A stretch of DNA of 64,000 bases, taken from positions 34,038,001 through 34,102,000 of the forward strand of contig NC_083282.1 in the NCBI RefSeq assembly GCF_963506605.1. The letters run 5' to 3'. The notes below the pieces were generated by a model. The model did no database searches, was not told where the DNA came from, and saw nothing but the letters and a program-made list of their open reading frames with translations. Source of the stretch: Zootoca vivipara (lineage: Eukaryota). The position numbers and the translations under genes are program-made. Positions 8,432 to 54,719 of the stretch are shown here, piece by piece (the stretch's first letter is position 1; each line of letters begins with the position of its first letter).

Positions 8432-11400
8432 ATCTATAGCATGTATTATATACTTAAGTATATATTAGCACATGGAATTTTTATCCGGATCTGTGTTACC
8501 TTGTTCAGTGCTGCATCTCCTCTTTTTTGGCAATATATAACTGGTGACCCTACCAACATGGCTCACTTTCAAAAGGGCAGTGAAAACTATTCTTGCATGG
8601 ATTTCCAGGGTATTGTGCTGCTTAAGTGGCTTTTACTGAGAACTGCTGCTTTTAGATACTGCTTCATTTACTTTAGAATATTTCAACTCCCATTTTTATC
8701 TGTTGTCCCCCTTTTGGACTTTGGTGAATCACACTGATTACTACTCTATCTAGAAAAAAGCAGGACAAAAAATCTTGGATGTGCTCAACCACTGAGCAAT
8801 GGCAATTCTTACGGCTACCAACTGTCATGAACAAATCAGGATTTTCACAGCAATTTAAACAGTCCTGACATGTGAAGAGGCAGCTTAGTGAAATCCCTTG
8901 GATTTTAATCTGAACCTTTAAGGAAGGTTTTGTTTTTGCAACCTACATTCAGAAATTAAGAACAGTCTCAGTTTCCATGCAGAAACATTAAAAGTAAGCT
9001 GAATTAGTCATAGCCAAAAGAGAAGTCATGCTTTATTACACGAGACAAGGTCCTGCTGGAGCAGCTGTATTCCTTGGTTCCTAGCTATTAGCTCCAAGTA
9101 ACATGCCCCATATGCATTGCTGGACAAGGTGCCTTCTGGACAGTGCTTGCCGAGCGCAAGGAGCTTTAGGTTCTGATGGCAAGGGATTTGCTAAATAAAG
9201 CTTAAATCCGCCAGCTTCATCCCTAGATGGAATACCGTGACAGTAAATAACAAAGCATAAATCGAAATAATACACGATAGCCACACATTTTTGTTTCACA
9301 TATTGGCCTGCATGGCTTTATGGCCACTTAACTGATCCATAGCGAATGTCAACCTTTCTTCCACTGTAAACAACTGTCTCCTGCCATCTCAAAAGAGCAA
9401 ATAATAGAAAGCTGTATTAGTACATGCAGAGCGCCACTGAGAACTCCGGCGAGCACAGTGCAGATTTCATTGGCTGGCCTTGGGCAAATCACTTCCTTGG
9501 CCTTAGCCCTTGCTTCCCCATAACTCCCACACCACGAATAGGAAAGCGGCTGGGGAGTGTGATCAGAAAAATTGTCCAGGAGGAAAGGATGAGGCCCTCT
9601 TACACACAGCTGCTCCAACCAAATCTACTACTCCCCCATGACTGTATTTCGCTTTTTAAAAATAAATAGGGAGAACTGAATATCTTGTCTTGGTTGACTT
9701 TGAGGCTGCTTGGGATGTGAAAAAGTAGTTTACAAATGGAATTTGCCACAATAAAGGGATCAGTATTGGAGCATCTTACCAAGTGGACAATTCACTGCTC
9801 CACATGTTCTGCTGAGATAAGAGAGGAGTTATGTACTAATCAGTTTCCTCCCATCCTTGAACTCCATACTTTCAACTGATCCCAGACAAGGGTGGTGGCG
9901 ATGATGGGCGAGACTTTCAGTCCCTAGCTCGTGTCAGCTAAATAAATGGCCGCGAAGTGCCAGACTAGTCTCAGTAGCAGCTGCTGAGAAGGGGCAATAG
10001 CAAGTCTCTAAAGGTGATAGAAATATTACTAATAACTTTACTACTGTACTCTTTAAAACTATCAACATATATGAATATTCAGACTTGACAGCTCAACAGC
10101 AGTTGATTAGTCAAAGAACGAAACACATCATTTTTCTTTGCAATAAAATATGTACGGTCTATTTAAAACGTGTTTCAATAGAACACAAGAAAGGTAATAA
10201 AACTTCAATCTAGTTATCTGAGCAAGCCCATTTAACTTGTGTTGTATTTGATGGGGTTGACCTTTTCAAGCATTCTGGGTCTGAAACAGAGTTCATATTT
10301 CATTGTGTGTACATTTTAATTGCTCTCATATATGCACACAGAAGTTGGATGCTGGGCTTTCTTTTAAGAGCCTATGAAAATCAAATCTGACAGATACCAG
10401 TTGACAATGCTTGTGGTTCATCCCTATATAGCAATTAGTGCAGACTAATTGACTTCCACACAGACCACATGGATATTAGATTCTAATTTAAGTTACATGC
10501 CATATTTTTCTTCTGAAGAAGTAACCTGCTATAAAATCAATTGTGAAGTGAAATCAAAGTACCAACTCACACTCTGAGCATTAACACCTGCAAATCTGAT
10601 TGAAGGCTAAAACCACTCCTGATTTTATAAAGTGGAGTGCATGTGTGGGGTAGGAATATACGATCGCAAGGCTCTCTTATATTTTGGTTTTTTAAAAAAA
10701 CAAACACCCCTGCAGCTCATCTGAGGTTTTCTACAATATTTTGACTCAATCACAGTAAGACACCATGGATCTAAATTGCAGCCAAAATCTGCTATCAAAT
10801 TAGGGTTGTGCAAGATATTTTTGGCTCCCTACAGTACATAGAAAACCCAGTGGCACAATCCACTAGGAAATTATTTTTAGAAGCCTAAGCAGAATGAGTA
10901 GGAAATATGGCTTAGCACAGCTCTTATTCATTTCAGTGGGCCTTGTGCAGGGACACTTCTGAGTGAATTGTGTGCTCTAGTTCTGATCCATCTGCCTTCG
11001 GCCTCTATGTGATCCTTAGGCTGGAGTCCTATACTGTATGTATTAACCTAGGAGTCAGTCTTCTTGAATTCAATGGAACTTATCTTCACCATAACTGTAC
11101 TGTCTGGTTTTGTGCTATGTCCTGCCCACTTAACAACCGTGTTGTTGCTGGCACCTACAGCACTGAAAATTCAAGGTGTCCATTGATTTTAAAAAGATTG
11201 GCAACCTCTGTTTTATTGCTTCCTGTTCAGTAGATGCTCAGAAGTACCATTGAGTTCAATGAGTCTTACTCACACGTAAGAGTATAAGATTGCAGCCTGA
11301 ATGCAAGAGATTCTTTTTCTACTGAAAATATTGTGAAAGAATAGATGCTGCAAACTGGGGGGGGGGGGAACCTTTAAAAACCCAGGATACTCTTTTGGCA

Positions 11401-12603
11401 GTTATTAGTGGCCTGTGTAATTACATACATAATCTTATTACCACTTGTGCTGTCATCCTCTCTTCTTCCTCCTTCAGTGATAATCTCATTGCTGAGTCTA
11501 GCCAGTCTGATCTAAACATGCAAAGTGAATTCCTGTGCAATAGAGAGCTTTATTCTTTTCGGCATTGTACATGCCACTCCTTATAATCTGGTAAGGAAAA
11601 GAGAGCATTTATTTAAGAACACATTCTGAAGTCATTGGCTACACTATGAAACTTTAAACCCAGTCTTTTACATGAGACTCCTACACAAAACTCAGTTCAG
11701 CAAAAGGTAATAGCAAATAATGGAAGGACATGATTCTGGTACCTTTAATAGTGTTGTAGAAGGGGGAATTTCAGGAGGTGTATATTTTCATTCCTATTCA
11801 TAAGAATCCTGCCAAAAGAACTCTACATAACTAGAAGTACAGGATCTCAATCCAATTAGTATCTACCTGGTAACTCGTGTTGAGTTTGGTGCATCTATAA
11901 ATAACTAGGAAACTTTTGGCTGCCTCTTCATTTGTTGCCCAGAAACTAGAGATCTACAGATAAATTCACAGTCAGTCTGTCAATACAAAATTTATAAGTT
12001 TTGTAAGAGTGGTGTACAGTGTACACTCAAGGAGAAATTTAATCAGCTACAGCACAACCTGCCTCACTTAAAAAACCCCTCCCTGCTGTGTAAGTAGAGA
12101 CAATTAACCTATGCCTTTGGGTAAACAGAGCAGTTCAGGTCATACATGGGGATTCAAAGGCGGCATTTTACCTCCCGGGTCTCCTTTTTAAACACACAGC
12201 TCAATACAGTATTTCCAATTTTATTTTATTTTAAGTTTATTTTAAACTACTAAAAACCCATAAACAAAAAAAAGCCATGGCATTTGTTAAGATGGACTCT
12301 TACGGGCCTAGTTCTGAGAGAAGTAGAAAACATATGCCTGAACTGTGCCACTATAAATTGCAGGTGGAGGCTTCATGGAACTGAAGGTTCCTCTCTATAC
12401 AAAAGTCATATAGTACAAAATTCCTTCACACAGAAAACTAGCATGTCAGGGAGAGTAGTAAAGTTATAACTTTACTCCCAAATGCCTAGTTTTCATTACT
12501 TAGGAACTTAGTTTCAGATGTGACACACCGGATGTGTGGGCAGCCAAACGTAGGTTTATCATTTCAGTAAGAAGCAGGCTTTAGCAATAACTGTTTTCTT
12601 TTG

Positions 12604-12827
12604 AAATAAAAAAATTCCTTCAGTAGCACCTTAAAGACCAACTAAGTTTTTATTTTGGTATGAGCTTTCGTGTGCATGCACACTTCTTCAGATAACTTCT
12701 GAAGGTATCTGAAGAAGTGTGCATGCACACGAAAGCTCATACCAAAATAAAAACTTAGTTGGTCTTTAAGGTGCTACTGAAGGAATTTTTTTATTTTACT
12801 TCGATCCAGACCAACACGGCTACCTAC
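12604..12827 (-). mobile_element. Penelope-like element remnant (inverted pLTR hairpin)
   Basis: About 90-bp inverted repeat (12604-12694 / 12706-12796) plus tail gaccaacacggctacctac; 13-bp TSD ctgttttcttttg at 12591-12603 and 12828-12840. Confidence 0.85.
12704..12743 (+). ncRNA. Minimal type I hammerhead ribozyme motif (Penelope-borne)
   Basis: GGTAT-CTGAAGA-A-GTGTGCATGCACAC-GAAAGCTC-ATACC: 5-bp stem I, CUGANGA core, palindromic stem II, GAAA, palindromic AGCU stem III, NUH site ending at C12738. Confidence 0.72.
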
Positions 12828-13678
12828 CTGTTTTCTTTTGCATACTTTAACCAGCAACTCCTGCTCAATCCATATAAAACAAGTTTATACTTAAAACAAT
12901 TGATTCACTTTAAATAAATTTAGGAGGTAAGTGTTTCATTACATCATTTAGGGTACCCCTAGTGGTCTTTTATCTAACTATATGGGCTGGCAAAACAAAA
13001 CCCCAAATTCAAGCCCTTTTCCTTTGCTTTTCATAAGTCAGCCACGGGTAGATTTACCAAAATTATTCCTTTCCACAGCCATTTCAGACTTCCCATCTTT
13101 GGACATACTAAAGTGACATGCAATGTTCATTCAGCCTTTTCCTCCTCTATGCAAGGAAGCACTTCTACAAACATTATTTTATTTATCTCAGGGAAAAGAC
13201 ACTTCCATAATTCCATGGAGATAGAACAAAGGCAAAACAGGAAATAAAACCCCACTCAAAGCTACAGAGCTACAATTTAAAAAAAAACAAACAAACCCAG
13301 AGGATAACATCTCTGTCCCTCTGTTACATCATTTTCCACTTTCCTGCCTTGCAAAGCTTATCCAGTCTGCAAAGCCATCTTAATATAGTTAAACACACAG
13401 GTGGGGAAGCATCTTCTCTCCCAGTCACATGCAGGAATTACTGTCCAGCAGCACTCTCCAGGAATCCTTAGGACTCACCTGACAGCTAATATTTCCCCTT
13501 ATCCAGAGCTTTTTAATGGGTAACTGTCAAGAGGCAGATCATTTTTGACAGAACAGTCTGCTACAGTCTGATAAGAGAGGCATCACCTCCTTAGTACATA
13601 TAGCGTCTCCATTTTTCAATGTAAGAAACCTAAGCTCACCAATATTTTCTGCACTTCCCAACTTTTGCACTGTATCAG

Positions 13679-13716
<38 letters not shown>
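13679..13716. repeat. (TAAA)n microsatellite
   Basis: About 9 tetranucleotide units. Confidence 0.95.
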
Positions 13717-13717
<1 letters not shown>

Positions 13718-14803
13718 AATAAGTCTACTTACAAGGATAATAAAGTTAGAGACCAGCTGCTTGGACTCGTTTGAAGCCCAAACCAGGGAAATTTGTAAGC
13801 CTAGCTTCAATGTACGGGAATTTCACATCCCAAATATTGAAAGAACTTACACACAAATCATTCCCTACATATTTCGCGGAAGTTGCATAAATACTTCCAA
13901 TGCTACTGTCACCAAATTTACCTATAAGCAAACCCTACTAATAAAGCTTACCTGAAAATTAGGCTGCAATCCTTGGTACTCATTTGGGAGTAAGTCCATT
14001 CCACTGTAATCCTTTTACTCCTGAATAAACAAGGACAGGAATCAGCTAATGCAACTGAAGTCATGAGAGCTAGTTTCTTTCCACTAAACACAGTATCACT
14101 ATCTGTGATTCTCAGGCATCCAGATTTAATTAACTGATATGTACAAAAAAAGTAGCAGGATGACTAATATAGATAGTGCTAATGCAAAACCTTCTGAAAT
14201 ATATTACACACTATCAAAGATCATTCAACTAAAGCACACCAATTGAGATGGGACATAGCTGTTTGTTTTTATGAAGGGCAGGCATTATCTGTAATGATGC
14301 TTTCTTTACACTGTTTGAAGGAACTCCTTTAAAACTCAGACATACCACTAGACACAAGGACACGGCTCCCTGAATCTTTGAACAGTTGTGTGGCTGAAGG
14401 TGCAGTTCTACTCTGTCTTACCACTCTATTTAATAACCAGCTGCACCTGGTGGGATTCCCTTGTTGCACAAATTAAAGGCATATGAGCTCTGTTCTTGCC
14501 TGCAGCAGGTCTTCTTAGGCACACTCATATTTTGCTTTATTAAATAAGTCAGCACGTATTCTTAAGGACACATTGGAAACTTTATTTATATTTTCTTTTT
14601 ATATTTAGGCATTGCTTGGCATGCTTAAAAACAACACTTCCTTCAAATAATATATCTGAAACTTTTATGAATTGCCCTGTCCCATCAAAATTTGATTACA
14701 AAAATGCAAAATACCCTCAAAAGAGGCATTGAAAACATGTCTTCATTCATTTGCTAAGACATTTTAAACTACTGTTCTATACATTATAAGGCACATTCTA
14801 GTG

Positions 14804-14932
14804 CAGCTTTCCCCAACCTGATGTCCTTCAGATTTTGGACTACAATGCCCATCTTCCTTGGCCATCAGCCGTTTTGGATATGGCTGATGGGAGCTGAAAT
14901 CCAGCAACATCTGAAGGGCATCAGGTTCCCAT
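14804..14932. mobile_element. Degenerate hAT-type MITE
   Basis: cagctttccccaacctg...ttggactaca...caacatctgaagggcatcaggttcccatg; same architecture as the 8296 family. Confidence 0.65.
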
Positions 14933-15148
14933 GTGGTCTAGGAAACTATGCCACTGCAAAAGACTATGACCCAGAAGGACTGGGACCCCATCCAATTTTT
15001 CTCAGCCATTGACTGACAGAAACACAGATGGTTAGCTAAAAAAACAACTCCCTGAATATGCAGTAAACATAAAATGTGGTTGCTCTCTTTAAAATGCTTA
15101 ATCTAGTAATATTGATTTAACCAAATGGGCACACTACAAAATCTAAAG

Positions 15149-15284
15149 CAGTGTTTCCCAACTTTGGGTCTCCAACTATTTTTGAACTACAACTCCCATC
15201 ATCCCTAACTAACAAGATCAGTGGTCAGAGATGATGGGAATTGTGGTCCAAAAACACCTGGAGACCCAAGGTTGGGAAACATTG
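15149..15284. mobile_element. hAT/Charlie-type palindromic MITE
   Basis: TIR cagtgtttcccaac...gttgggaaacattg; perfect TSD atctaaag at 15141-15148 and 15285-15292. Confidence 0.9.
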
Positions 15285-15369
15285 ATCTAAAGCATGCCAA
15301 TTAAAAACATATAAAAAAGGTTAAAAACAGAATCAATTAACCATTGAGAAAAGATTTATTCTTATTTGC

Positions 15370-15860
15370 CTGCTCAGGCCTGGTGGAATAGAAAAGGTGT
15401 CAGCAGGCATTTAAAAGTTGGCACTGAAGCCAATAGACGAATGTCTATTCACAGAGTATTCCATAAGGACTGGGCCAATGATACTAAAGTGGTTGTCAAA
15501 TGACCCTCACCAACTCAGATTGGCCAGTGACACTCCAGTAGATTACCTCAGTGATCTAGTTGGAATATAAGGGTTTAGGCAATCCCCAAGGTACCCTGGA
15601 CCTAAGTTGTTCAGGAGTTTGTAAATTAATGCAAGAACCTTGGACCTGACACATCTGTAGATGGTCAGCCAATACAGCTGTTTTAACCTTGGCATCACAT
15701 GTTCTTGACCAGATGCCCCCACCAGCAGGAGTTTCCAAACCAGACTAAGGGCAGCCCCATGTAGAGCACATTACAGTAATCCAGCCTCGAGGTTACCAAC
15801 GCGTGGACTACAGTGATCAGGCTATCCCTATCCAGGAATAGCCATAGTTGGCAACTTGCT
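15370..15860 (-). mobile_element. L2 LINE ORF2 C-terminal remnant
   Basis: Translates to LITVVHALVTSRLDYCNVLYMGLP, the L2 ORF2 hallmark; disrupted elsewhere. Confidence 0.8.
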
Positions 15861-16024
15861 AATTTCCCAAACATGGGAATGACGCAAAGAGCCTCCAATC
15901 TTCCCAGGATTCAGTTTATTGGCCACCACTGCATTCAAACACCAATCCAGAGCTTTCATAACCTCTCCTGATTTAGAGGACCAAGAGGTGGTGCTATTTC
16001 AGATATAAAGGCTACACTCTAGAC

Positions 16025-16270: not shown

Positions 16271-16587
16271 CAGTCTAGACAGAAGAGTGAATTTACAGGG
16301 TAGTAAATTCCTTTCTCTCTCTCCTTGTATGGATGCAGACATTGGCTAGAATCCAAATAATTGTACAACGTGCTCCATGTAGCTGGAGGGCTTTTTAGGC
16401 CATGTCTCTTGAACCAGCTTCCCATTCAAAATGCAACACAGCCCTTTTGAAATGGAGAGGACTTTCAGAAGTAGTTTGTCATGTGGAAAGGGGTAACCTT
16501 ACCTGGACTGGAACTACCCCAGACTCTGGTGAACTGGAACATATAAAACGATTCCCTTAACATTACAGTAACCTACTGCTGAAAGTT

Positions 16588-16808
16588 ACAGGTAGGTAGC
16601 CGTGTTGGTCTGAGTCGAAGCAAAATAAAAAAATTCCTTCAGTAGCACCTTAAAGACCAACTAAGTTTATATTTTGGTATGAGCTTTCGTGTGCATGCAC
16701 ACTTCTTCAGATACACTTCTGAAGAAGTGTGCATGCACATGAAAGCTCATACCAAAATATAAACTTAGTTGGTCTTTAAGGTGCTACTGAAGGAATTTTT
16801 TTATTTTG
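16588..16808 (+). mobile_element. Penelope-like element remnant (inverted pLTR hairpin)
   Basis: Near-identical to 12604-12827 in opposite orientation; 15-bp TSD ctactgctgaaagtt at 16573-16587 and 16809-16823. Confidence 0.85.
16676..16714 (-). ncRNA. Minimal type I hammerhead ribozyme motif
   Basis: Minus strand GTAT-CTGAAGA-A-GTGTGCATGCACAC-GAAAGCTC-ATAC with 4-bp stem I. Confidence 0.68.
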
Positions 16809-17584
16809 CTACTGCTGAAAGTTTAAGAGCTCAAAAACCCCATGCCCTTGAACATTTTACATCATTAAAGGGTTAATGACTGCCTCTTGGAACTGGAAAT
16901 AAACACTGAATAAGTGTTTATCATGGTGACTATCTGAGCTGGTGATTTGGCTGCTAAACATGAAATCAGTCTTGTGCACACTACTGACATCTAATGGTTA
17001 GGCTTGCTGCTGCATGTAAACGCATATGTCAGCCTGAGCTAATATTTTAACTGATGCAAAATACAAATCTAGATTTTGTTTTGTTTATTTTTGCTTTTGG
17101 CGGTACATATCATAACTATACCTTTTTTTGCTACAATAGTTATATGAAAGATGCAGAAGGCTGGCCAAATACTGTTTATTTTAAAGGATTTGTATTAATT
17201 TAGGGGAAAACCAATGTCATTCTTTGTGGCTTTTTCCATGCACCATATTTCAAAATACAATTGAACATCTCCTAAAACTGGCTGATTTGATTAAAACTAT
17301 GGGTGGGGTTGGCAGAGAAGTAGGGAAAGCATTAGGTCATCATTCCAAGCAGTCCTTGTTACTGGAATAGTATTCAGCACTATGGTTGTGATGCACCCAT
17401 TGCAACCTTGTGAGCTGACTATTGTTGTATAAAGAATTAATATATGGACCAACATGTGTAGGTAAACAACAAAAGGGAAATGGTTGGGTGCCTAGATTCA
17501 AAATATGGGGCTAGCACACAGCGAGCTCCAGAAGCAGAATATTAAACTCACAAAAATAAGCAGCAATATAGTCTTGGAGATATA

Positions 17585-52910: not shown

Positions 52911-54268
52911 AAGCAGCAAAGTGCATGATGGTGGTCTGAACAAGGTTAAGTAGGTAGCTTGTGGCTGGGTCTATGAAGGCTGGATATTAAAAGGAGGGTT
53001 TTGTAAAAAATAATGTTGAAAGCAGCATGTGAAAACTGATACCTTTGCAGTCGGAAACAGAATAAGATATTAGGCCCCATAGCTTGCTTATCATAAAATG
53101 CCACGTACCAGTGTTAATAAGTGCACCTGGAGAAAGTTATATATGCTGATTCTGGAATCATGTACAGTATGCTGTAGCTCAACTGACTAGATGGCAGAGT
53201 ATTAGGTATCTGCACTAACAGTGCAAAAGACTGTTCTGCTGAACAGCGCCTGGGGTCACAGCAGATAAGGTGTCCACGGCCTCAGGGAAGTGGGTGTGCC
53301 TTTTGTTTAATCAATCAATATTCAGGCTAGTAGCCAATGAAAGAGCGACTCTGGTGTAAATACAATCCAAGCGACAGGTTTTAACTATAAAAGGATAAGG
53401 TGTCAGAGATATAATGGGGAAATTTCACAATTAGTTACTAAATTAAACCCATACAATCAGCATGGCTCTCCAGGTGGTTTGGCTGACACGCAAGCCAAGC
53501 TTCTACAACACATTTTACCCCCTTTTAGAAATGTGCCTCCTAACAGAGCAACATTTTATGAGACTTGTCATTACACATGCAACTACTAATATACAAAAAC
53601 AGAACACCTTTCTTTTACAATGTACAATGCACTAACTGAAATCAAAGCAATACGTACTATATTTACTGCACGGTAACTGTGAAGATAACTGTACTGTAAT
53701 TATCAGCAGCACAGACAATTTACTAAAAACAATTATTTCCGAAGTTATTGGTTGTCCCAATCCCATCAGGATTTTAAGTTCTATTCCTACAAACACTCCA
53801 TTAACTTGATATGAGTGTTGCTATTCCTAGGTATCTAAGGGATAATTAATACAAAATCAGGAATTGTTCAGAGTATGTAAATATACACAATAATCCACCC
53901 CACCCCCGATTTACAGATCACCTAGGTACCCAACACCTATTTAACAAAATCAAAGAGCACAACTGGATTTATGGATACAACTGTGCTCTGCTTGAGCGCT
54001 TGCAAAGTTTGATACCACACATGTCTACTGCTCAACCTCCATAGTGTAATGATAGGAACTACCAATATTTAACAGCTTTAATAAGAAGCAGAGGCGGTGT
54101 GTAAGAGTTCACCCATTTTCTTTAACTTTGTTCTTGGTAAAATCAGTAGCAGGTCTGCTTCCAGATACAGCTGTATATGTGTGTGTGGAGTTTAAATCCC
54201 TATGCAACTAAATTCCATTTTTCAAAACCTTTTTTTTTGGGGGGGGGGGATAAATCTTTTCCTCTTAC

Positions 54269-54505
54269 CTTATTCGATGCCATTTCGCTAACAGATCGGT
54301 AGGTCTGAATGGTTTCAAGTTGGTCTAAACACCAGTCCAATTCCTCCAAAGTTTCCATTGCTAATTTTTGATAAGATTCCTCTGCAAATAAACACACAGG
54401 CATGTAGTTAGGCTTGAGTGATTGCAGGCTTTCCATGGTGGAATCGCTGACACGGCTCGGACCGACGCTGCTGTAGGTGCTGCTGCTGCTGTGCTCTTTC
54501 ATCAT
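54269..54505 (-). CDS. PDE4B: PDE4B short isoform (PDE4B2-type) first coding exon; 54269-54381 (113 nt) is also the shared UCR2 exon of long isoforms
   Basis: MMKEH...[48 protein letters not shown]|gtaag; internal acceptor tttgcag|AGGAATCT at 54383-54382. Joined exons total 1698 nt (565 aa from ATG 54505, 564 aa from ATG 54502). Confidence 0.95.
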
Positions 54506-54719
54506 GAGTTCTGCTAGCTCCTGTTCCAGTCTCCAGCAGAACAAATCAATGCACGTCTCGCCTTTGAGTGGCTGTTGTGGTTTCATGGACTTTCTTCTCT
54601 TTTTGTTCTTGCTGGCTTTGAAGAAGCAATGTCAGTACTACATCAACAAACTTCCTCTCGTAGGGGATGTAAGGGGAGGGACCTCTGTCAGGCTCATCTG
54701 CATGTATATTATGCACTCA

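What the first reader, a model, noticed from the sequence alone, without database searches (positions are those of the whole stretch)
12604..12827. Penelope hairpin carrying back-to-back minimal hammerhead ribozymes
Seen: each arm of the ~90-bp inverted repeat contains CTGAAGA-A-GTGTGCATGCACAC-GAAAGCTC-ATACC. The plus copy (12704-12743) has a 5-bp stem I (GGTAT/ATACC); the minus copy (12657-12694) has 3 bp. Known: Penelope-like elements carry minimal type I hammerheads whose tiny palindromic stem III is thought to work as dimers. Inference: transcription from either direction yields one sense ribozyme that competes with a long dsRNA fold masking it, a built-in self-cleavage versus siRNA switch.
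Basis: partly seen in the sequence, partly recalled or inferred. Interest (0 to 1): 0.7.

Follow-up and report, generated by a model that had tools for sequence, protein, structure and literature searches.

The report
Back-to-back Penelope start-of-transcript stubs
This 230-base mirror-image DNA is one young insertion of a very abundant Penelope-type jumping gene, one of about 1,500 such hairpins in this genome; it was likely built when both cut DNA strands copied the first 90 to 130 bases of the element's RNA, and its inherited self-cutting RNA motif is predicted to be locked shut in any transcript read through it, so it is likely a by-product and not a switch.

Summary
12604-12831 is a young insertion (13-bp target duplication, tailed arm 127/127 identical to a 3.0-kb RT + GIY-YIG Penelope-like element). 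The genome holds 19,619 exact hammerhead copies and 1,549 close back-to-back pairs. The motif is a genuine Penelope minimal hammerhead, with paired changes in an older family. The 5-versus-3-bp stem I difference comes from the junction: the native stem has 4 bp. On either strand the antisense arm is transcribed first, and the ribozyme fold costs 56-60 kcal/mol. The upstream TATA-like box is missing, and flanks had no RNA reads in two runs. Copies show no clear pile-up at the cut site. Arms instead stop about 31 nt below the TATA-like box, often with an extra G, and 49 of 52 hairpins have exactly one tailed arm. This points to two cDNAs primed from both nicks on capped sense RNA. Inverted pLTR, one-sided tail and dimer-type hammerheads are published, and this scan has already noted the same layout and the twin-priming reading in other genomes. 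Low interest.

The parts
12591..12603 (+). Left target-site duplication, 13 bp
   Evidence: The 13-mer occurs only at 12591 and 12828 in the window
12604..12694 (-). Tail-less arm: start of the element's RNA region, read on the minus strand and ending in the T-tract
   Evidence: 91/91 identical to the pLTR of L064; tail-less arms end at C3+81 to +96 in most hairpins
12657..12694 (-). Minimal hammerhead motif, minus copy; C3 at 12691, 3-bp stem I, predicted cut after C12662
   Evidence: stem I does not form in the predicted monomer fold
12695..12704 (.). Junction filler, not in the source element; includes the extra G12704 (likely cap-derived, inferred)
   Evidence: Source element has a different sequence here; G before the stem in 3,517 copies against 1,760 for A plus C
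12705..12831 (+). Tailed arm: from the likely transcription start to the end of the tail
   Evidence: 127/127 identical to L064
12705..12743 (+). Minimal hammerhead motif, plus copy; C3 12709, extra A 12716, helix II 12717-12730, palindromic helix III 12734-12737, predicted cut after C12738
12797..12831 (+). One-sided Penelope tail, about 35 nt; in full elements it continues into the ORF start
   Evidence: the tail 24-mer has 15,816 exact matches in G000
12828..12840 (+). Right target-site duplication; its first 4 nt overlap the tail end (microhomology)
16588..16810 (-). Second, independent hairpin of a sister subfamily, tail on the left, 15-bp duplication (16573-16587 and 16809-16823)
   Evidence: one contig of run X20 joins 16572 to 16809, i.e. 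the empty site

Best explanation
This is a young, non-coding insertion of an endonuclease-bearing Penelope-like retrotransposon, made of two head-to-head stubs of the element's pLTR, and it was likely built by two reverse-transcription events on the element's sense RNA, with the hammerheads carried along as predicted-inactive passengers. Shown: source family, target duplication, arm boundaries, one-sided tail, copy numbers. Inferred steps: (1) the source RNA starts at the first bases of hammerhead stem I, about 31 nt below a TATA-like box, and is capped. (2) The endonuclease makes a staggered cut of about 12-13 bp. (3) One 3' end primes in the U-tract (about C3+88), the other at the tail end (about C3+125), on the same RNA or on RNAs of one source locus. 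(4) Each cDNA runs off the RNA 5' end after only 90-130 nt, often copying the cap as an extra base. (5) The two cDNA ends are joined with short templated filler or through microhomology. The hammerhead is kept under selection in the master elements, where it likely cleaves as a protein-assisted dimer. In this hairpin it is predicted to be base-paired to its own antisense arm.
For: Source: L064 is a 3,000-bp pLTR-ORF-pLTR unit; the two frames of L070 match RVT_1, and one also matches GIY-YIG above its cut-off. Scale: 19,619 exact hammerheads and 1,549 pairs within 30 nt. Layout: 49 of 52 hairpins (the first 50 listed plus 2 in the window) have one tailed and one tail-less arm, 0 have two tails, and 41 of 52 show a flank repeat of 10 bp or more, mode 12-13. 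Either arm can be the longer: of 36 palindromes among 98 tail-anchored copies, tail-less longer in 18, tailed longer in 6, within 10 nt in 12; tail-less arms reach 462-555 nt upstream in three cases. So the tail-less arm is not a fold-back copy of the tailed cDNA. 5' ends: 32 of 107 arms end 0-8 nt upstream of C3 against 18 over the next 27 nt (0.033 vs 0.009 per nt). Extra G: 3,517 vs 1,760 for A+C; 29 of 30 inspected G copies lack the native upstream sequence, 20 of 30 had no inverted arm detected, and in 2 (L174, L196) the G sits between the duplication and the element and belongs to neither. Same source: the subfamily marker matches between arms in 38 of 45 hairpins, is swapped in 2 (both rows of L121, likely one duplicated event), and differs by a point change or was not parsed in 5. 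Masking. In vitro, the Anolis Poseidon protein nicks and extends both strands from two internal start sites that bound the tail, and uses uncleaved RNA (PMC11167929).
Against: No start site was mapped directly: RNA reads show no pile-up of molecule starts there, and 79-92% run on into unlike flanks. The extra G could partly be filler or microhomology; several inspected copies share the G with the target or with the opposite arm. PMC11167929 saw no strand difference in start-site use in vitro, which does not by itself give the one-tail rule. Matching arms cannot tell one RNA from two RNAs of one active locus, and L121 and L163 have mismatched arms. The hairpin sample was chosen by pattern and comes from the first 43 Mb of one contig. 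D. virilis Penelope has an internal promoter (PMC2377424); if this family has one too, outward transcripts from the centre could carry an unmasked ribozyme.
Confidence: 0.75

Rival explanations
1. One reading: the hairpin is a built-in switch between ribozyme self-cleavage and long dsRNA or siRNA.
For: Both cores are intact. Hairpin-centre joints do occur in RNA reads from other copies of the family (opposite-strand joints at the arm starts in 3 of 3 runs), so such dsRNA can exist. Penelope small RNAs are known in a rotifer (PMC3846280).
Against: The ribozyme fold is 56-60 kcal/mol worse than the hairpin and is captured during synthesis on both strands. There is no same-strand partner. The unique flanks had no RNA depth in 2 of 2 runs, about 6% of each run read. 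Junctions and stem I lengths vary from copy to copy. Intact cores are explained by youth (127/127 identity).
Confidence: 0.04
2. Self-priming on an antisense transcript makes the inverted arm (the published proposal in PMC3846280).
For: Head-to-head layout and small palindromes at junctions fit; several junctions fall in the 14-nt palindromic helix II.
Against: Arms and solo copies stop at the predicted sense start with an extra G. Solo copies come both with and without the tail (7 and 13 of 20), which fits two independent priming sites on sense RNA.
Confidence: 0.1
3. One cDNA folds back on itself (snap-back), or DNA repair copies it, to give the second arm.
For: Arms nearly always match in subfamily, and some share private changes (L139, L141, L167). 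Filler is often templated from nearby arm sequence.
Against: The tail-less arm is the longer one in 18 of 36 cases, by hundreds of bases in some, and a tail-less cDNA cannot supply the tail.
Confidence: 0.1
4. The hairpin is a separate miniature element or retrozyme that moves as a unit through ribozyme-cut RNA.
For: About 1,500 copies of similar size with target duplications.
Against: Centre sequences are highly varied among the 50 listed places. 5' ends at the cut site number 50, against 37 and 46 at control sites 3 nt either side. The ribozymes are on opposite strands, whereas retrozymes are same-strand tandems (bioRxiv 10.64898/2026.07.22.740005).
Confidence: 0.02

Closest known systems
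Endonuclease-bearing Penelope-like element insertions with an inverted pLTR, one-sided tail and target duplication (Pen2a_Av, PMC3846280; fig. 2 legend of PMC8557442)
   Same: Inverted 5'-truncated copy next to the direct one, 30-40 nt tail at one end only, target duplication, TATA-like box about 20 nt from an initiator-like motif in the full pLTR.
   Different: No ORF at all: both arms are reduced to the stretch between the likely transcription start and the two priming sites, and this size class has over a thousand copies.
Minimal hammerheads of metazoan Penelope-like elements (PMC4209133; dimer cleavage reviewed in PMC6765202)
   Same: Core, extra base between 9 and 10.1, G10.1-C11.1, 4-5 bp helix I, palindromic 15.2-16.2; that paper also notes pairs on opposite strands 100-700 bp apart in Schistosoma.
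   Different: Helix II is itself a perfect 14-nt palindrome, and the two motifs are only about 17 nt apart and fully complementary.
Anolis Poseidon element PAc in vitro (PMC11167929)
   Same: Two internal start sites bounding the tail, both strands nicked and extended, uncleaved RNA as template, no ends found at the ribozyme cut site.
   Different: This family has a CX4CxxC linker (Neptune or Nematis type) and its ribozyme lies upstream of the ORF start; the strict one-tail rule seen here was not reproduced in vitro.
LINE-1 twin priming (recalled, not from a call)
   Same: The second nick primes on the RNA and gives an inverted segment.
   Different: In LINE-1 the two cDNAs cover different parts of the RNA; here they overlap almost fully, which needs strand displacement or a second RNA.

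Membership tests
EN+ Penelope-like elements | ORF with RT and C-terminal GIY-YIG endonuclease in the source element | tested here: met
   RVT_1 E 3.5e-12 and GIY-YIG E 4.7e-05 in L070; the insert itself has no ORF
EN+ Penelope-like elements | pLTR-ORF-pLTR partial tandem | tested here: met
   L064, repeat unit 3,000 bp
EN+ Penelope-like elements | Inverted pLTR with 30-40 nt tail at one end, and target duplication | tested here: met
   49 of 52 hairpins one-tailed; 41 of 52 with a flank repeat of 10 bp or more; 13 bp here
Neptune/Nematis clades | CX2-5CxxC zinc-finger linker between RT and EN | tested here: met
   CX4CxxC found upstream of the YIG motif; feature as given in PMC8557442
Neptune/Nematis clades | Placement in an RT phylogeny | not tested
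   No named reference proteins were fetched; the label Neptune is a likely assignment only
Minimal type I hammerhead of metazoan PLEs | Core, extra base before G10.1-C11.1, short helix I, palindromic helix III | tested here: met
   Positions 12705-12743
Minimal type I hammerhead of metazoan PLEs | Paired changes in the helices across families | tested here: met
   11 sequences, 83.6% of 110 cells paired, 3 pairs with two-sided change, score 0.247 against at most 0.116 for slid controls. The core and 3 pairs were fixed by the search pattern; the sample is small and related.
Minimal type I hammerhead of metazoan PLEs | Site-specific self-cleavage | not testable with these tools
   Indirect only: no RNA end pile-up at the site in 3 runs and no clear excess of DNA copies starting there
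Non-LTR retrozymes | Two or more same-strand tandem units, each with a hammerhead | tested here: not met
   The motifs are on opposite strands; definition from bioRxiv 10.64898/2026.07.22.740005
Rfam microRNA precursors | Score at or above the family's gathering cut-off | tested here: not met
   Best 67.7 bits against 90 (MIR1222); 0 of 28 matches reach the cut-off

The most novel reading that the evidence does not exclude
The thousands of short stubs record the Penelope integration reaction directly: a protein dimer assigns the two target nicks to two different start sites on one capped sense RNA (one tail, one no tail), and both cDNAs run off the 5' end at the first base of the hammerhead. 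This would replace the published antisense self-priming model and show that uncleaved RNA is the template in the germ line.
Probability: 0.5. Interest if true: 0.55.

Novelty: new member of a known kind. Interest (0 to 1): 0.25.

Why it matters
As a ribozyme switch it most likely does not matter: it is one of about 1,500 similar by-products. Its value is as evidence on how Penelope-like elements build their inverted arms and one-sided tail, a question that PMC3846280 left open and PMC11167929 addressed only in vitro. Such hairpins in transcribed host regions would also add long dsRNA to the host transcriptome.

Tried and rejected
Rfam: no hammerhead family among 28 matches at E up to 10 over 10000-16000; the hairpin-driven microRNA hits are all below cut-off. 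The test pattern captures a smaller share of random flanks than the controls (my estimate: about 0.35 vs 0.56), so a small contribution is not excluded. No listed holder of the element is on record as RNA (no evidence either way); three raw RNA runs with the same species label were laid instead. A>G and T>C differences in those reads cannot be told from copy variation without matching DNA. Small RNAs were not testable with 150-nt reads. The dimer through helix III could not be folded (pseudoknot); free cofolding prefers a 14-bp helix II swap. No listed contig piece spans the 12604 site, so its polymorphism is unknown. The per-position tally was selected on the core itself, and downstream positions are also well conserved, so it is weak evidence of ribozyme-specific selection. 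PMC5785218 (dimer cleavage) is not held. Paper searches for Penelope + Neptune + lizard + palindrom gave 0, and Penelope-like + twin priming + inverted gave 2 unrelated listings; most subscription journals are not covered. A search for the cap-derived G gave nothing relevant, so that idea is recalled.

Full report
Observation. The window holds a 96-bp inverted repeat, 12604-12699 and 12701-12796, 99% complementary, folding at -162.2 kcal/mol with 0 of 200 shuffles as stable. Each arm carries the stated motif: plus C3 at 12709, minus C3 at 12691. The right arm continues for about 35 nt to 12831, and a 13-bp duplication (12591, 12828) bounds the insert. A second hairpin lies at 16588-16810 with a 15-bp duplication. 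Rfam gave no hammerhead among 28 matches and none at cut-off.

Source. The right arm matches many places at 100%. Its tail 24-mer has 15,816 exact matches in the 1.44-Gb genome, control 0. Pairs of tails 3 kb apart led to the parent: L064 is a 3,000-bp pLTR-ORF-pLTR unit, L070 frames match RVT_1 and GIY-YIG, and a CX4CxxC linker points to the Neptune or Nematis type (feature from PMC8557442, passages read). The window's arms are 127/127 and 91/91 identical to L064. There are 19,619 exact hammerhead copies and 1,549 back-to-back pairs within 30 nt. One contig of run X20 joins 16572 to 16809, the empty site of the second hairpin, so the family is young and that site is likely polymorphic; this rests on one contig.

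The ribozyme. The motif has the features that PMC4209133 (parts 1-2 of 4 read) lists for metazoan Penelope minimal hammerheads. That paper reports no activity for a monomer and low activity for dimers. A pattern that excluded this family's helix II found 9 places, 7 from an older family. With the two window copies, 11 sequences give 83.6% paired cells and two-sided changes in both helices, above slid controls; the core and three pairs were forced by the pattern. Subfamilies differ strongly in the 25 nt upstream but inside the motif mainly at N7 (selected on the core, so weak). The motif is therefore likely under selection in master elements. The native base 5' of the stem is T (64 of 64 copies, though that filter required it), so native stem I has 4 bp, and the fifth pair in the plus copy comes from a non-native G.

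No switch. Head-to-head geometry puts the antisense arm first on both strands. Truncated folds show the ribozyme paired to that arm from its first bases, and forcing helices I and II costs 56.0 (plus) and 59.5 (minus) kcal/mol. No same-strand partner exists for helix III, whose duplex is worth only -3.9 kcal/mol. The TATA-like box 35 nt upstream of C3 in full pLTRs is absent. In runs X21 and X23 (about 6% of each read) unique bins on both sides had zero depth. The nearest gene evidence is a PDE4 gene on the minus strand, with Pfam hits at about 54 kb and 31.5 kb in 2 of 13 ORFs scanned, so the hairpin lies about 19 kb past the end of the catalytic domain, likely intergenic. Family-wide, RNA depth is far higher over the short stub than over promoter or ORF, 79-92% of reads run on into unlike flanks, and no pile-up of ends is listed at the cut site. 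That is read-through of many copies. Opposite-strand joints show that some hairpins are transcribed elsewhere, so dsRNA may form, as a passive result.

How it was likely made. (a) One-tail rule: 49 of 52 hairpins have one tailed and one tail-less arm, none has two tails. (b) Either arm can be longer: 18 tail-less, 6 tailed, 12 level, of 36 palindromes among 98 tail-anchored copies. This argues against fold-back. (c) 5' ends cluster: 32 of 107 arms end within 8 nt of C3, nearly four times the per-base rate further upstream, about 31 nt below the TATA-like box. (d) Extra G: 3,517 against 1,760 for A and C together; 29 of 30 inspected lack native upstream sequence, 2 show a G that is neither target nor element, others share it with target or opposite arm. 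Cap copying is my recalled explanation. (e) Arms match in subfamily in 38 of 45, are swapped in 2 rows of one locus, 5 other. (f) PMC11167929 (parts 1-2 of 4 read) shows both-strand nicking and extension, two internal start sites bounding the tail, uncleaved RNA as template and protein-assisted cleavage. Together: two nicks prime at two sites on sense RNA, both cDNAs run off after 90-130 nt, and the ends are joined. Steps (a)-(e) are counts; the start site, cap origin and single-RNA use are inferred. The samples come from the first places listed on one contig.

Cleavage footprint. An earlier scan note claimed, for another genome, that copies stop at the cut site. Here 50 copies start there against 37 and 46 at controls, and 24 of the 50 are explained by the stem I homology with the opposite arm. 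The patterns are not equally sensitive, so a small effect is possible; it would be minor next to 3,517 copies that start at the stem with G.

Known work. Inverted pLTR, one-sided tail, duplication and an antisense self-priming proposal: PMC3846280 (passages). Layout figure legend: PMC8557442 (passages). Dimer cleavage: PMC6765202 (passages); the primary paper PMC5785218 was not held and not seen. Internal promoter of D. virilis Penelope: PMC2377424 (passages). Retrozyme definition: bioRxiv 10.64898/2026.07.22.740005 (part 1 of 5). I read no supplements; those of PMC4209133 (reptile motifs) and PMC11167929 (fig. S2) may already show this motif or the 5' end clustering. Searches found no paper on twin priming in Penelope palindromes, within the held library. 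The scan's own notes report the same layout and the same twin-priming reading in several other genomes; I had noted the idea before, and they are not independent support.

Verdict. A real feature, a new member of a known kind. The switch is unlikely (about 4%). The residual interest is the integration mechanism that the copies record. Interest 0.25.

Noticed in passing
L062:1820-4242 (G000:C1, about 2.777-2.780 Mb): Same-strand tandem array with a 598-bp period: an internally deleted derivative with promoter, hammerhead and ORF ends, four full ribozymes in a row. It fits the retrozyme layout and is a better dimer-cleavage candidate than the hairpin.
   Followed up: partly
window:12717-12730: Helix II is a perfect 14-nt palindrome; an intermolecular duplex (-25.2 kcal/mol) is predicted to beat two hairpins (-4.1 each), and several hairpin junctions fall inside it. 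The older family lacks this palindrome.
   Followed up: partly
L200-L202, L205-L208: Decayed older family with the same hammerhead core, a 6-bp helix II and a compensated stem I pair; no RT or EN remains in the 3-kb loci.
   Followed up: partly
window:31251-31826 and 54203-54631, minus strand: Exons of a PDE4 cyclic nucleotide phosphodiesterase gene (PDEase_I just under cut-off, PDE4_UCR).
   Followed up: no
window:58430-58489: Short tail-end remnant of an older subfamily of the same element, 85% identical.
   Followed up: no
window:8291-8436, 14815-14927, 15144-15289: Older palindromic repeats of another family, 82-91% complementary arms, MITE-like; unrelated to the Penelope element.
   Followed up: no
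window:16020-16270: A high-copy repeat with inverted ends, heavily covered by RNA reads and contigs from other copies.
   Followed up: no
L115 / L179 (G000:C1, about 3.972 Mb): The tail-less arm carries clustered changes in the ribozyme, including two A-to-G, that the tailed arm lacks; possible RNA editing of one template, not tested.
   Followed up: no
L121, L163: Hairpins whose two arms differ at subfamily markers; they may come from two different RNAs.
   Followed up: partly
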